Shown here one piece after another: positions 3,141-58,040 of a stretch of 64,000 bases of DNA. The stretch's first letter is position 1, and each line of letters begins with the position of its first letter. The DNA is from Octopus sinensis. Its lineage: Eukaryota. Below the pieces are notes generated by a model. That model did not search any database and was not told where the DNA came from. It saw nothing but the letters and a program-made list of their open reading frames with translations. The position numbers were made by a program, and so were the translations under genes. The stretch is taken from assembly GCF_006345805.1 (NCBI RefSeq), contig NC_043001.1, forward strand, positions 135,346,001-135,410,000, in the 5' to 3' direction.

Positions 3141-3615
3141 CATCATCATCATCATCATCGTTTAACGTCCGTTTTCCACGCTAGCACAAGTTGGATGGTT
3201 CGACCGGGGATCTGGGAAGCCAGGGGTTGCTCCAGGCTCCAGTCTGATCTGGCAGAGTTTCTACGGCTGGATGCCCTTCCTAATGCCAACCACTCCGCGA
3301 GTGTAGTGGGTGCTTTTTACGTGCCACCTGCACAGGTGCCAGGGGGGTCCGGCATCGGCCACGATCGGTTGGAGCTTTTAACGTGCCAGCGGCACGGAAG
3401 CCAGTCAAGGTGGCGCTGGCAACGGCCACGTTCGGATGGTGCTTTTTATGTGCTACCAGCACAGAAGCCAGTCGGGTGGCGCTGGCATCAGCCACGTTCG
3501 GATGGTGCTTTTTATGTGCCACCAGCACAGAAGCCAGTTGAGTTGGTGGTGGCTACGTCCACGTTCGGACGGTGCTTTTTATGTGTCACCGGCACAGGTA
3601 TCACAACTACTATTT
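3141..3615 (-). mobile_element. SINE-like family C ((GAT)n tail) with about 4 internal ~60-bp repeats
   Basis: (cat)n-cgtttaacgtccgttttcc...gctggatgcccttcctaatgccaaccactcc followed by repeated cggatggtgctttttatgtgccaccagcac units; many homologous copies in the window. Confidence 0.85.
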
Positions 3616-10447: not shown

Positions 10448-10905
10448 CATCATCATCATCATCATCGTTTAGCGTCCGTTCTCCATGCTAGCACGGGTTG
10501 GACGGTTCGACCGGGGTCTGGGAAACCATGAGGCTGCACCAGGCTCCGGTCTTATCTGGCAATGTTTCTACAGCTGGATGCCCTTCCTAACGCCAACAAC
10601 TCCGTGAGTGTAGTGGGTGCTTTTTATGTGCCACATGCACTGGTGCCAGGTGATGCTGGCATCGGCCACGGTCAGATTGGTGCATTTTACGTGCCACCTG
10701 CACGGGAGCCAGTCGAGGTGGCACTGGCTTCAGCCACGATTCGGATGGTGCTTTTTACGTGCCACTGACACGGAAGCCAGTCGAGGCTGCACTGGCATCG
10801 ACCATGATTCGGATAGTGCTTTTTACGTGCCACCGACACGGAAGCCAGTCGAGGCGGCACTGGCTTCGGCCACGATTCGGATGGTGCTTTTTACGTGCCA
10901 CCGAC
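10448..10905 (-). mobile_element. SINE family C with about 4 internal repeats
   Basis: (cat)n tail, family C core and repeated cggatggtgctttttacgtgccac units. Confidence 0.85.
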
Positions 10906-10922
10906 AGGAACCATAAATCTGA

Positions 10923-19636: not shown

Positions 19637-20053
19637 AGGCGGCGAGCTGGCAGAAATGTTAGCACATCGGACGAAATGCGTAGCCGTATTTCGTCTGCCA
19701 TTACGTTCTGAGTTCAAATTCCGCCGAGGTCGACTTTGCCTTTCATCCTTTTGGGGTCGATAAATTAAGTACCAGTTTCGCACTGGGGTCGATGTAATCG
19801 ACTTAATCCATTTGTCTATCCTTGTTTGTCCTCTCTGTGTTTAGCTCCTTGTGGGTAGTAAAGAAATAGGTATTTCGTTTGTCTTTACGTTCTGAGTTCA
19901 AATTCTGCCGAGGTCGACTTTGCCTTTCATCCTTTTGGGGTCGATAAATTAAGTACCAGTTTCGCACTGGGGTCGATGTAATCGACTTAATACGTTTGTC
20001 TATTCTTGTTTGTCCCCTCTGTGTTTAGCCCCTTGTGGGTAGTAAAGAAATAG
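19637..20053 (+). mobile_element. SINE family A with a duplicated body
   Basis: ggcggcgagctggcagaaatg head; second unit starts after aagaaatag|gtatttcg at about 19870; flanked by gatgttgc(t/c)ggtatcag on both sides (probable TSD). Confidence 0.9.
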
Positions 20054-21293: not shown

Positions 21294-22862
21294 ATAATAA
21301 TAATAATAATAATAATTGTGTACAGTGCTCAGGTGCACTACAACTCATCTAAAGTGTATATATAATCAGGTGTAGTTTCGACGGATTTCGGGAAGCATGA
21401 GGGCCTTAAAGGATGCAGTGTCATGGCAGTCAACAACTGACGCAGGCAGTTTGTTCCATGCTTCAGCAACTCTGAGCGTGAAAAAATGTTTCCGAAAGTC
21501 ATGGGAGCTGTGCTGTTTTCTGACTTTGTAGGCATGTCCACGTGTGTTAGACACATGGAGATCAAAAAGGTGTTCAGTGTTGTTGTTGGTGAGGTGGTTG
21601 ATAACCTTGTGGGTGTTTACCAAGTCCGTCGCCAGACGCCGGAGCTTCAGTGAATCCATGCCCAGGGAAACAAGGCGCTCAGAATATGGTAGGTGTCTGA
21701 TGGAGGGTATGCGTTTGGTTGCACGTCTCTGGACAGATTCCAGGAGGTCAATGTTCTGAGCAAGATAGGGATTCCAAACTGATGATGCGAATTCCAAGTG
21801 TGGTCGTACCATAGCTGTATACAGTTTTAAATAGATGGCTGGAGAGCGGCTAACAAAAGTCTTGCTGAGTGATGCCAAGACACCCTCGGCCTTCTTGACA
21901 ATTTTAGAGATATGCTTTGTCCAACGCAAATCACTGCTGACAGTGATGCCTAGGTCACGCTCGCAAGAGGATTTCTTGATATCAGTGTTGTGGAGGGAGT
22001 ATGTGGACGCAGGGTTTTTTCTCCCCCAAAATGCATGGTGGTACACTTGTCCACAGCCAGTTTCAGTTGCCAGTCTTGATCCATTGCTGCATTGTGTCTA
22101 GGTCTGATTGCAGGAAAGAGTTGTAGACATCAGGATCAGTCCTCTTGATTTCAAGGTACAGCTTGATGTCGTCTGCATATTTCAATACTGTGGCATTCTT
22201 TAAATTGGCATCTATGTCATTAATGTATGCCACAAACAGGAGGGGACCAAGGACAGATCCCTGTGGTACACCCGATGACATCTCATATGGTGTAGAGTGC
22301 TGTCCTAGAACTGTGACTACCTCCTTTCGGCTGAGGATGAAGGATTTCAACCAGTTAAAAAGGTCATCCCCCACACCCATTGCAGAGAGTTTCACCATAA
22401 GCCTTTTGTGTGGCACAGAGTTGAAAGCCTTAGAAAAGTCAAGGTAGACAACATCCACCCATGAGCCACTGTCAGTGATCTGAGTAATGTCCTCAAGGAA
22501 CTCGACAAGCTGGTCACTGCAGCTGGAGTTAGGGACAAATCCATATTGTGAGGGTCGGATGAGACTGTGAGAGCTCCAGAAGTTCCAGAGTGTTTCTCTG
22601 ACACACGATTCCATCAATTTTGCAATACAGCTAGTGAGACTGACTGGGCGATAGTTGACAGGTGATGTGCGGTCACCCTTTTTGAACAGAGGAATGACAC
22701 TGGCAGTTTTCCACTGCTCCGGAGTAGCACCATTGTTGAGACAGTACTGGAAGAAAATAGAAAGCTGGTGTAAAAGGAAGTGCCTGCCACGTTTGAGAAG
22801 CAGGTATGTAAGTCCATCGAGACCAGGGGAGGCATAGTTGCGCTTATTTTGAAGGTGACGTC
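21294..22862 (-). mobile_element. 5'-truncated CR1-like LINE with a nearly intact reverse transcriptase ORF
   Basis: RT motifs PLFKKGD...NYRPVSLTS, QYGF, YLDFSKAFNSV, SGVPQGSVLGPLLF, KYADD, ERDLG, VRPHLEF, ESVQRRATK; 3'UTR and (TTA)n tail; ORF split near 22030-22075 by frameshifts. Confidence 0.95.
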
Positions 22863-23131
22863 TGTTTGACATTATAATGGTTCTGACAATTCCTCACCCT
22901 AACCTGGTACTTTTATTTATTGATGCTGGAAAAATGAAAGGCAGAATTGATTTGAGCAGGATTTGAACTAAGAATGTAAGATGCTTGAATAAACATCACA
23001 AGACATCCCATCTGATGCGCTTATGATTCTGCTTTTACATGCAGCTAAATACTATGGCATAGAAATTAGTCTGTTGTGAAACACTATCATGTTGATATTT
23101 CACTATCATACGGATCAAATCTGGCAATAGG

Positions 23132-52349: not shown

Positions 52350-52893
52350 TACATGCCACCGGCACGAGGCCAGTCGGGGAGGTGCTGGCAACGGTCACGA
52401 ACAGATGGCACGTAAGAGAACCATCCGTTCGTGACCGTTGCCAGTGCCACCCCGACTGGCCTCGTGCCGGTGGTACGTAAAAAGCACCATCCGTTCGTGT
52501 CCGTTGCCATCCTCGCCTGGCCCCCGTGCCAAAAGCACCATCCGCTCGTGTCCGTTGCCAGCCTCGCTTGGCCCTCGTACCGGTGGCACGTAAAAGCACC
52601 ATCCGTTCGTGTTCGTTGCCAGCCTCGCTTGGCCCTCGTACCGGTGGCACGTAAAAGCACCATCCGTTCGTGGCCGTTTGCCAGCTCCGTCTGGCACCTG
52701 TGCGGGTGGCACGTAAAAAGCACCCACTACACCCACGGAGTGGTTGGCGTTAGGAAGGGCATCCAGCCGTAGAAACACTGCCAGATCAGACTGGGCCTGA
52801 TGCAGCCTTCTGGCTTCACAGACCCCAGTTGAACCGTCCAACCCATGCTAGCATGGAAAGCGGATGCTAAATGGTGATGATGATGATGATGAT
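52350..52893 (+). mobile_element. SINE family C with about 5 internal repeats and a 5' inversion
   Basis: Units gccggtggcacgtaaaagcaccatccgttcgtg; 52353-52400 is the inverse of 52429-52475. Confidence 0.85.
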
Positions 52894-56177: not shown

Positions 56178-56399
56178 TATTATCATCATCCTCATCATCA
56201 GCAGCAACATCTGCCTTCTTTACTATCCATTTCCCATGGGTTGGACAGTTTGACAGAACTGGTGAGCCAGAGGACAGTGCCAAGCTTCAATTCCTGCTTT
56301 GGCATGATTTCTATGATTGGATGCCCTTCCTAGCATCATATATATATATATAATTAAGGGCTCCTAAATAAGGATGCCAAGTGTATATAATTTAAATAT

Positions 56400-57460
56400 A
56401 TCTACTGTTTTTTTTTTTCATTACAAGAATATAACTAGATACTTTGTATGCTTTTAGAGTATGGAAAAAAGAGGGAAGAAGCTCCTAATGGACCATTTTG
56501 CAGTTTGTTGATTGCTCATTTGAGAAAACATATTTGATTTCTTTCATCAATCATTAACATAGGATATTCAACTATATATATTAGTAAAAAAATAAGCTGT
56601 TTTGGATAGCCTATTTTGTATACTTCATTACTTACTTGTACTTGTGACAGCGTTCACCCAGGGCATGTTGAACTGGCTTCTTCTCTAGTCCTAATGGCAT
56701 CACGAACCATGGTGGCCCACTCTCAACGGTCCCATGCATGGTCACTGCAGATAGCGAGCCATTTGCGGTTCCATCTGCGCAGACCGACCACCTGCGGACC
56801 TGAGAGTTCAGAGAGGTCCTCCTTTATCGTCATTGCCCAGGTGTTCAGCTGCTCACCTGTGCATTTGCACCAGCTGGGAAGTAGAGGTGGGAGGAGGACA
56901 TCACGAATCAGCTCACCCTCTGGTCTTCAGGCCACATGACCGAACCACCTTAAGTGCCATTGTAGAAGCACCGAAGGGAGGGGGCTGGAGATTCAGGTGA
57001 TGACGAAGACCGGCTGTAGGAACCCGATCAATGCGTCGGCAGCGAAGAATGTGGCAGAGACAGTCATTGTCGACCACCTCCAGCCTTCGCTGATCGACTA
57101 CAATTTCGTATATTTGTACTTTAGACAGCTGGTCATTAAATAATATATATTTTATTCACAACACTGTGTAAATCTGAAGGATTGAAATATGTTCATATAT
57201 TAGAAATTCTTAACTGTGATAATGAACTAACTATATAAGAATATAAACACATTTCTTCTATGCTTTTACTTTACAAAGAAAAGGTGGGAAGGCTTCTGAT
57301 GAACTGTTTCAGAGTTTGTTGACTGCTCCTCAGCAGAGATGTACATGATTACCTACCTTTCTTAATCAATTATATAGAATAATCAGTTACTTTATAGTCA
57401 GGAAAGAAGCTGTAGTGGATAGCTTAATTTGCATATTTATACTTTTGATTGCTCATCATT
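56400..57460 (-). repeat. Diverged tandem ~300-bp units, each carrying a decayed hammerhead motif, split by an RTE insertion
   Basis: 56420-56616 resembles 57233-57430; the two-copy consensus gives CUGAUGA-GCAGU-caacaa-ACUGC-GAAA-C-ggucc-(A/G)UC. Confidence 0.6.
56628..57135 (-). mobile_element. RTE-like LINE 3' fragment
   Basis: Translation ...RRLEVVDNDCLCHIL...LRWFGHVA*RPEG...TWAMTIKEDL...DR*EW; (CAAGTA)n tail. Confidence 0.8.
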
Positions 57461-57539
57461 AATTATACAATATATATTTTATGTAGACTTTTGTTGATAG
57501 CACCTTTGTACATGGCTTATTACACTCACAAGCCATTCA

Positions 57540-58040
57540 TAATAATAATAATAATAATGAAATTATTGTATACAGTGCTCAGGTGCACCACAACTTGTCA
57601 AAGTATATGCAGTAATGTACAAATGTCTGGAAAGCGAACAATGTATGAGTCAGATACATGCTTGTGTGTGTATGGAGGGGAAAAAATCAGGTGTAGTGTT
57701 GGCGAATCTCAGGAAGCATGGAAATTTTGGAGGATGCAGTGCTCCGACAACTAACAACTGATGCCAGCAGTTTGTTCCATACTTCAGCAAATCTTAGTGT
57801 GAAAAAATGTTTCCGAAAGTCATGGGAGCTGTGCTGTTTTCTGACTTTGTAAACATGTCCAAGGGGGTTAGATAGGTGGAGTTTGAAAAGGTGCTCAGAG
57901 TTATTGTTGGTAAGATGGTTAATAATTTTATGGGTGTCTGCCAAGTCAGCTGCCAGACGTTGGAGTTTCAATGTATCCATGCCCAGGGAAGTAAGGCATT
58001 CAGAATATGGCGTATCCATGCCCGGGGAAGTAAGGCGTTC
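57540..58040 (-). mobile_element. CR1-like LINE 3' end (second subfamily)
   Basis: LGMDTLKLQRLAADL...GHVYKVRKQHSSHDFRKHFFTLR; longer 3'UTR; (TTA)n tail. Confidence 0.9.

What the first reader, a model, noticed from the sequence alone, without database searches (positions are those of the whole stretch)
56400..57460. Fossil retrozyme-like tandem: two diverged ~300-bp units whose consensus rebuilds a hammerhead
Seen: copy 1 (56482-56526) reads ctcct-aat-ggacc-a-tttt-gcagt-ttgttg-attgc-tcatttg and copy 2 (57293-57339) reads cttct-gat-gaact-g-tttc-agagt-ttgttg-actgc-tcctcag. Neither is intact, but their mutations are complementary, and the minus-strand consensus is CUGAUGA-GCAGU-CAACAA-ACUGC-GAAA-C-GGUCC-RUC|AG. 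A third partial copy (ttgattgctcatca) lies at about 57444-57457. Removing the RTE insertion (about 56628-57135) leaves the units head-to-tail with a ~300-bp period. Established: non-LTR retrozymes are tandem units of a few hundred nt with one hammerhead each, processed into circular RNAs. Inference: this is an old retrozyme or tandem pLTR family that single-copy motif searches would miss.
Basis: partly seen in the sequence, partly recalled or inferred. Interest (0 to 1): 0.7.

Follow-up and report, generated by a model that had tools for sequence, protein, structure and literature searches.

The report
Fossil hammerhead retrozyme, extinct family
This is a decayed, nearly two-unit copy of an old scattered 325-base repeat whose family consensus forms a complete hammerhead (self-cutting RNA) motif; it was likely pasted in tens of millions of years ago by a Penelope-type jumping-gene enzyme, probably from a circular RNA, which makes it a dead member of a known kind of element.

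Summary
Two diverged units (207 of 292 aligned bases identical) lie head-to-tail on the minus strand, period 322 once a younger LINE fragment and its 13-bp duplication are removed. They belong to a dispersed 325-nt family (66 loci examined, roughly a few hundred copies, none young). The family consensus gives a full type I hammerhead: all 12 core bases tested, helices of 7, 5 and 2-3 pairs once CpG decay is reversed; 0 of 20,000 resampled units do. Corrections: position 7 is A/G, helix II held CpGs, and the 'third copy' is another part of the unit. Family insertions read through the cleavage site (68 of 85), end at two sites about 100 and 140 nt beyond it, often abut microsatellites, and carry head-to-head arms (11 of 66 loci): a Penelope-type footprint with no Penelope ORF nearby. 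Divergence matches a published octopus Penelope burst (~56 My; host inferred). An unrelated young retrozyme family in the same genome shows the same footprint. Verdict: new, extinct member of the known non-LTR retrozymes; cleavage and circles untested. The scan noted similar octopus elements before on other DNA.

The parts
56385..57483 (-). Whole insertion: about 1.9 head-to-tail units of the 325-nt family, interrupted by a younger LINE fragment; 3' end (low coordinate) uncertain by about 35 bp
   Evidence: Alignment to family consensus: 57483-57102 covers unit positions 2-325 then 1-59; 56625 onward covers 47 to about 295
57158..57483 (-).
57291..57340 (-). Decayed type I hammerhead A: 12 of 12 core bases, helix II 4 of 5, helix I 3 of 7, 15.2-16.2 pair lost; predicted cut site 57298/57297
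   Evidence: family model scores it 72 bits (in the training set)
57403..57430 (-). Family hairpin (about 13 bp in the consensus) with a 6-nt loop-side deletion that unit B shares
57444..57458 (-). Look-alike of the hammerhead 5' half ('third copy'); a normal part of every unit, not a ribozyme
57102..57157 (-). 5' piece of unit B (unit positions 1-59)
56626..57101 (-). 5'-truncated 3' fragment of a high-copy LINE (RTE-type; label recalled from its C-terminal motif and short-repeat tail)
   Evidence: 40 of 40 scored matches, other copies 86-90% identical, 1076 candidates; longer relatives continue into an RT-like ORF; no Pfam hit on the fragment itself
56613..56625 (-). Left copy of the degenerate 13-bp target-site duplication of the LINE (right copy 57102-57114; 10 of 13 alike)
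   Evidence: unit positions 47-59 present on both sides
56385..56625 (-).
56480..56529 (-). Dead hammerhead B: U4, G5 and G12 lost, helix I 6 of 7, helix II 4 of 5
   Evidence: 67 bits with the family model (in the training set)

Best explanation
This is a decayed insertion of about 1.9 head-to-tail units of a dispersed, non-coding 325-nt repeat family whose consensus forms a complete type I hammerhead motif, likely an extinct non-LTR retrozyme that a Penelope-like retrotransposon enzyme copied into the genome, probably from a circular RNA. Steps: (1) source arrays would have been transcribed on what is here the minus strand and cut once per unit by the hammerhead (inferred from the consensus and from core bases being better kept than other columns); (2) monomers would have been closed into circles (inferred from known retrozymes and from insertions that run through the cut site and exceed one unit); (3) a Penelope-type RT/GIY-YIG would have primed at one of two fixed points about 100 and 140 nt past the cut site, often at (TA)n/(CA)n targets, and copied round the template, stopping at random and sometimes writing a second inverted arm (geometry shown, enzyme inferred); (4) the copy then decayed neutrally, CpGs fastest, and was later split by a LINE (shown). 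This locus most likely does nothing today.
For: Family: 42 matches to unit A at 67-89%; 61 distinct loci plus the window, 66 with later additions; period 325; tandem neighbours at L009, L014, L027, L047, L058, L059. Motif: each of the 12 core columns holds the canonical base in most rows (for example G12 63 of 76, A14 74 of 75); CpG-restored consensus passes a type I topology test once on the sense strand, never antisense, 0 of 20,000 resamples; 19 of 58 rows not picked by pattern keep all 12 core bases; L043 is near intact. Core columns 0.88-0.89 conserved against 0.77-0.82 for base-matched columns, p 0.0003-0.005 in the stricter versions. Geometry: 68 of 85 elements span the cut site; 3 of 85 end within 15 nt of it; 59 of 85 3' ends lie at +80 to +160 (about 21 expected), with peaks at +90-109 (21) and +130-149 (27), while 5' starts are spread (28 of 85 in that window); 19 of 85 exceed 345 nt; 11 of 66 loci head-to-head, 0 tail-to-tail; alternating purine-pyrimidine runs follow 26 of 85 3' ends against 8 of 85 5' ends and 11% background. 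These are the Penelope features listed in 10.1101/2021.04.23.441226 (passages). Intact RT+GIY-YIG ORFs exist in this genome, one family with a hammerhead core in its 3' region. A young unrelated family shows the same footprint sharply. Age: window pair gives JC 0.19 per lineage, near the Penelope/LINE burst at JC 0.2, ~56 My, in PMC13282606 (passages).
Against: No cleavage, transcript or circle is shown for this family. No compensatory base changes beyond shuffles (245 of 500 for pairing, 258 of 500 for covariation; none of the 14 best-linked column pairs is a predicted pair), so the structure rests on consensus complementarity. The plain majority consensus fails my topology test at the 15.2-16.2 pair until CpG decay is reversed. 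Rfam Hammerhead_1 hits neither window copy nor L043. Most examined elements are about one unit long (only 5 of 85 over 480 nt). The partner Penelope family was not identified. The window insertion itself has no inverted arm and its 3' boundary is blurred. Core conservation may be inflated by alignment and search bias. The window pair shares derived bases only at the upper edge of unrelated pairs (6.3% vs 95th percentile 6.5%), and an automatic shared-deletion test did not flag it.
Confidence: 0.8

Rival explanations
1. The unit is the pseudo-LTR of a lost autonomous Penelope element, and the copies are 5'-truncated insertions and partial tandems of its 3' end.
For: Same insertion footprint; Penelope pLTRs carry type I hammerheads, one seen here about 165 nt from a Penelope 3' end; 24 of 57 Xenopus retrozyme families match annotated TEs, 21 of the 22 TEs being PLEs (10.64898/2026.07.22.740005).
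Against: Going upstream one re-enters the same unit; 11 ORFs from 8 fetched Penelope loci gave no Penelope-ORF tblastn hit at E <= 0.01 in 65 family loci, the window or its neighbours (only a LINE ORF hit 5 loci); the family profile finds nothing in 38 GIY-YIG loci, best E 0.49; 19 abutting shared 5' flanks are inverted arms of the family or SINE-like repeats (not every pair was read). Flanks were only about 1.5 kb and Penelope 3' UTRs here reach 0.7-1.5 kb.
Confidence: 0.12
2. Same element and same enzyme, but the template was a linear read-through or uncleaved multimer rather than a circle, or the second unit here arose by local DNA duplication.
For: An uncleaved tandem transcript also lets copies run through the cut site; helix III is short and some such ribozymes cleave poorly as monomers (PMC7229834, passages); 8 of 9 Xenopus elements tested did not cleave; recent local duplications do occur in this family (L021, L060).
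Against: Core conservation suggests cleavage mattered in the source elements; the two window units are as diverged as expected for copies made at insertion time; related animal retrozymes accumulate mainly as circles (PMC7229834 discussion).
Confidence: 0.25
3. Unit A still holds a working, perhaps co-opted ribozyme at this locus.
For: Unit A keeps 12 of 12 core bases.
Against: 19 of 58 unselected copies do so too, so it needs no selection at this locus; helix I is reduced to 3 of 7 pairs; the 71-nt stretch folds no better than shuffles (z 0.34) and not into the hammerhead shape.
Confidence: 0.03
4. Duplicated plus-strand coding exons, or a chance resemblance.
For: Short open frames of about 20-25 codons run across both motifs on the plus strand.
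Against: Dispersed repeat on many contigs, frequent indels, longest stop-free run 50 codons in the circular consensus; topology 0 of 20,000 resamples.
Confidence: 0.01

Closest known systems
Metazoan non-LTR retrozymes (Cervera and de la Pena 2020, PMC7229834: coral 220-245 nt, mussel 350-390 bp, axolotl 330/350 bp)
   Same: Non-coding unit of 325 nt, GC 35-37%, one type I hammerhead per unit with a short helix III, head-to-tail copies, strongly self-paired predicted circle (-90 vs -64 +/- 8 kcal/mol), Penelope elements in the same genome.
   Different: This family is extinct and degenerate (12-33% from consensus), mostly one to three units; expression, cleavage and circles not shown; host is probably an octopus, a group not named in that paper's main text (supplement unreadable).
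Pseudo-LTRs of endonuclease-positive Penelope-like elements (10.1101/2021.04.23.441226; 10.64898/2026.07.22.740005)
   Same: Fixed 3' ends with a roughly 40-nt offset between two end points, random 5' truncation, inverted 5' arms, microsatellite targets, type I hammerhead near the 3' end.
   Different: No RT or GIY-YIG sequence attached; the unit is circularly permuted and joined only to itself; no similarity to the 38 Penelope loci examined.
Young ~350-bp hammerhead repeat of the same genome (loci L080-L108)
   Same: Type I hammerhead, tandem units, two fixed end points, head-to-head arms (7 of 14 insertions, each with one arm at each end point), (AT)n targets.
   Different: Copies 94-98% identical to one unit; no detectable sequence homology to the fossil unit (score 70 vs 57.5 +/- 9.2); end points lie about 170 and 215 nt past the cut site.

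Membership tests
Non-LTR retrozyme | Type I hammerhead with conserved core and three helices, one per unit | tested here: met
   Family consensus; met by the consensus and a few copies such as L043, not by either window copy
Non-LTR retrozyme | Head-to-tail units of 150-450 bp | tested here: met
   Period 325, 322 in the window; 19 of 85 elements over 345 nt, longest 861
Non-LTR retrozyme | Non-coding, low GC, no LTR-type internal region | tested here: met
   Longest stop-free run 50 codons; GC 35-37%; PBS/PPT not searched separately
Non-LTR retrozyme | Dispersed by retrotransposition in trans | tested here: met
   66 loci with unrelated flanks, fixed 3' and random 5' ends, inverted arms; enzyme inferred
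Non-LTR retrozyme | Loop 1-loop 2 tertiary contacts | not tested
   Consensus has a 6-nt loop 2 and an internal loop beyond helix I; contacts not modelled; mussel retrozymes lack most of them
Non-LTR retrozyme | Self-cleavage | not testable with these tools
   Needs in vitro transcription
Non-LTR retrozyme | Accumulation as monomeric circular RNA | not testable with these tools
   Family appears extinct; only contigs of guessed RNA runs were on offer
Non-LTR retrozyme | 'Active' by the Li et al. rule: two consecutive complete hammerheads | tested here: not met
   Window has one damaged and one dead motif; it is a fossil
Penelope pLTR | Attached to an RT + GIY-YIG ORF | tested here: not met
   No Penelope ORF hit within about 1.5 kb of 65 loci or the window; no profile hit in 38 GIY-YIG loci; longer flanks and all copies not examined
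Penelope pLTR | Partial tandems, inverted 5' copy, 30-40 bp tail, microsatellite bias | tested here: met
   11 of 66 loci head-to-head, two end points about 40 nt apart, 26 of 85 3' flanks microsatellite-like
Rfam Hammerhead_1 (RF00163) | Score at or above the gathering threshold of 34 bits | tested here: not met
   No hit at E <= 10 on the window copies or L043; the young family reaches 32.2 bits

The most novel reading that the evidence does not exclude
An extinct retrozyme family from the ~56-million-year-old Penelope burst still records the two-end-point, two-armed, read-through insertion pattern seen in an unrelated family active now. Retrozyme families would then turn over completely while using one conserved Penelope-driven, circle-templated mechanism, giving a dated genomic record that circular RNAs serve as transposition intermediates in cephalopods, and a 50-million-year-old ribozyme that can be rebuilt and tested.
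Probability: 0.5. Interest if true: 0.5.

Novelty: new member of a known kind. Interest (0 to 1): 0.33.

Why it matters
The locus itself is junk, but its family is a fossil record of a known, poorly understood element. Mobilisation of animal retrozymes by Penelope enzymes from circular RNA is proposed, not shown (PMC7229834 discussion; 10.64898/2026.07.22.740005). Insertion geometry shared by an old dead family and a young unrelated one supports the partnership and shows that it lasted through family turnover. It also shows that pipelines needing intact tandem hammerheads (TRF plus motif, Rfam) miss such old families. Four literature searches listed no paper on cephalopod retrozymes; this scan has noted many similar octopus elements already.

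Tried and rejected
Rfam scans of the window, the finding and L043: no hammerhead hit. TRF does not report the tandem among the rows shown. One search used a misregistered structure string and is void; one search is the corrected count and shows no covariation beyond shuffles. The hammerhead-column part was mis-indexed and redone. Units-per-element values are artefacts of the repeated profile and were not used. All-pairs covariation scan: subfamily linkage only. Search for young copies of this family with three DNA queries: none; the nearest unrelated pair of copies differs at 20% of non-CpG sites, and two recent local duplicates (L021, L060) were dropped before column counts. Homology between fossil and young family: none. 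A retrozyme next to a Penelope 5' end in L141 was considered as a chimera and rejected: about 115 bp of microsatellite separate them. The 'third copy' as a second hammerhead: rejected. Sequencing runs: no RNA holder listed; two guessed-RNA contig sets show no cover over most of the units, which is no evidence on expression; no orthologous-locus information came from the DNA runs. The genome could not be scanned with a family-wide model, so copy number is an estimate (19 exact hits to a 22-nt hairpin motif, kept in 2 of 23 independently found rows and 8 of 19 already held: about 120 to a few hundred). The supplement of PMC7229834 could not be read and may list cephalopod repeats.

Full report
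Observation. The homology covers whole units: 207 of 292 aligned columns identical, score 157 against at most 60 in 500 shuffles, and a second block of 45 of 53 on the far side of the insertion. Aligned to the family consensus, the minus strand reads unit positions 2-325 (57483-57158), then 1-59 (57157-57102), then a 476-bp insertion (57101-56626), then 47 to about 295 (56625 to about 56385). Positions 47-59 occur twice, a degenerate 13-bp target-site duplication. The period is therefore 322. The insertion is the 3' end of a high-copy LINE family, 86-90% identical to the 39 other scored copies, whose longer relatives run into an RT-like ORF; the label RTE is recalled, and Pfam gave no hit on the fragment. 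It is younger than its host. The 'third partial copy' is unit position ~26-40 and has its own counterpart in the other unit.

The family. Unit A finds 42 matches in the genome at 67-89% identity. Two more DNA queries and two patterns gave 61 distinct loci plus the window, 66 with four later ones. The unit is 325 nt, 35-37% GC, without an ORF over 50 codons. In 78 rows of at least 150 columns, non-CpG divergence from consensus is 12-33% (mean 22%) and CpG divergence 48%; of 2828 unrelated pairs the closest differ at 20%. No young copy was seen; only the best candidates are scored by the search, so this is not exhaustive. Linked columns point to at least two subfamilies. A rough estimate is 120 to a few hundred copies.

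The ribozyme. In the family alignment (two recent duplicates dropped) the canonical base is the majority at all 12 core positions tested; position 7 is G or A. Ten columns show the TG/CA signature of CpG decay, among them helix II, the 15.2 base and the base before the triplet. Reversing these gives helix I of 7 pairs, helix II of 5 pairs with a 6-nt loop, helix III of 2-3 pairs with a nearly self-complementary loop, and a GUC triplet. This passes a type I topology test once on the sense strand and never antisense; 0 of 20,000 resampled units pass. The plain majority consensus fails only at the 15.2-16.2 pair. Of 65 rows covering the motif 26 keep all core bases (19 of 58 without pattern-picked rows); L043 also keeps helix II 5 of 5 and helix I 6 of 7. 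Core columns are better conserved than base-matched columns (0.88-0.89 vs 0.77-0.82), also in the loci of the first search alone, which suggests that source elements were selected for the core; alignment bias may add to this. Against: pair counts show no covariation beyond shuffles, expected for independently decaying dead copies but no support either; Rfam misses both window copies and L043. Window motif B has lost U4, G5 and G12; motif A has a full core but 3 of 7 helix I pairs and folds no better than shuffles. The consensus unit folds as a circle at -90 kcal/mol against -64 +/- 8 for 60 resamples, with the motif on top of a long stem and predicted in a self-paired, inactive form.

Insertion geometry. 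Of 85 elements of at least 100 nt, 68 span the predicted cut site and 3 end within 15 nt of it, so the template was not a linear monomer. 59 end 80-160 nt past the cut site (about 21 expected), in two peaks at +90-109 (21) and +130-149 (27); 5' starts are spread. 19 exceed one unit, 5 exceed 480 nt. 11 of 66 loci have two arms head-to-head, none tail-to-tail. Alternating purine-pyrimidine runs of 16 or more follow 26 of 85 3' ends, against 8 of 85 5' ends and 11% of background windows. Some ends are later truncations by SINE-like repeats. The window insertion ends near +102, the first peak, with a blurred boundary and no inverted arm. Passages of 10.1101/2021.04.23.441226 list partial tandems, inverted 5'-truncated copies, a 30-40 bp tail and microsatellite bias as Penelope features.

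Partner and living model. The genome has thousands of GIY-YIG candidates and intact 760-880-aa RT + GIY-YIG ORFs; one family has a hammerhead core in its 3' region. None of 11 ORFs from these loci found a Penelope remnant near 65 family loci, the window or its neighbours, and the family profile found nothing in 38 GIY-YIG loci, so the unit is not shown to be a pLTR and its partner is unidentified. A generic pattern gave 1022 matches against 20 for the reversed control, most of the first 100 listed being one young family with ~350-bp period. Its 14 fetched insertions are 94-98% identical to one unit, end at two points, are followed by AT-alternating sequence, and 7 are two-armed with one arm at each point; it has no detectable homology to the fossil unit and scores 32.2 bits on Rfam Hammerhead_1.

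Age. If both window units were identical at insertion, their 30% non-CpG difference gives JC 0.19 each; mean distance to the mixed consensus is JC 0.26. They share a 6-nt deletion in the hairpin (2 other rows of 55 have 6-nt deletions at shifted places; my automatic test missed it) and a borderline excess of shared derived bases.

Comparison and verdict. The family meets the sequence-level features of metazoan non-LTR retrozymes (PMC7229834: passages and the discussion read; supplement not readable); cleavage and circles are untested. The Penelope origin of retrozymes is argued in 10.64898/2026.07.22.740005 (parts 1-3 of 5 read). Searches listed no paper on cephalopod retrozymes. Earlier notes of this scan describe similar fossil and young octopus families; a look-up by sequence found none like this unit, so whether they are the same family is unknown. 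I had seen the clustered ends and inverted arms before reading them; the split into two end points for this family I tested afterwards. Verdict: a real, dead, new member of a known kind; interest modest.

Noticed in passing
G000, loci L080-L108 (for example L083:981-1594, minus): Young ~350-bp type I hammerhead repeat family, probably many hundreds of copies, arrays of up to at least six motifs at ~353-bp spacing, palindromic helix III loop, (AT)n targets, two-armed insertions. Contigs of four guessed-RNA runs cover it and three wrap from unit end to unit start, which cannot tell circle from tandem.
   Followed up: partly
L141:3035-6822 (minus), L145: Penelope family with a 775-aa RT + GIY-YIG ORF and a type I hammerhead about 165 nt from its 3' end; canonical core in L145, a U4-to-C variant in L141; ends in (TA)n.
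   Followed up: partly
L141:6937-7272 and L135:84-416: Relatives of the young retrozyme (87% and 72%) sit in the same microsatellite patches as Penelope copies, consistent with shared targets.
   Followed up: partly
L084, L088, L089, L096, L099, L113: Further hammerhead-like motifs that belong to neither family examined; at least two more families are likely.
   Followed up: no
window:57444-57458 (unit position ~26-40): Every unit carries a 12-of-15 look-alike of the hammerhead 5' half just before a 13-bp hairpin; it fails at C3, G12 and the helices. Chance, a pairing decoy or a very old second ribozyme cannot be told apart.
   Followed up: partly
window:60718-61776: Tandem array of nine 118-bp units, 96% matches.
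   Followed up: no
window:21369-22893 (minus): LINE-like reading frames; 22066-22893 has a Pfam RVT_1 hit, E 8e-32.
   Followed up: no
window:7790-8351, 19686-20053, 3309-3597, 10656-10910, 52460-52724: Tandem runs of SINE-like repeats with periods of 184 and 61-68 bp; 57600-57800 is a very high-copy repeat.
   Followed up: no
window:36476-36959: Long CAG/CAA-rich run with open frames of 110-144 codons, possibly a glutamine-rich exon.
   Followed up: no
L088:1120-1220: Near-perfect long inverted repeat, probably a two-armed or fold-back insertion.
   Followed up: no
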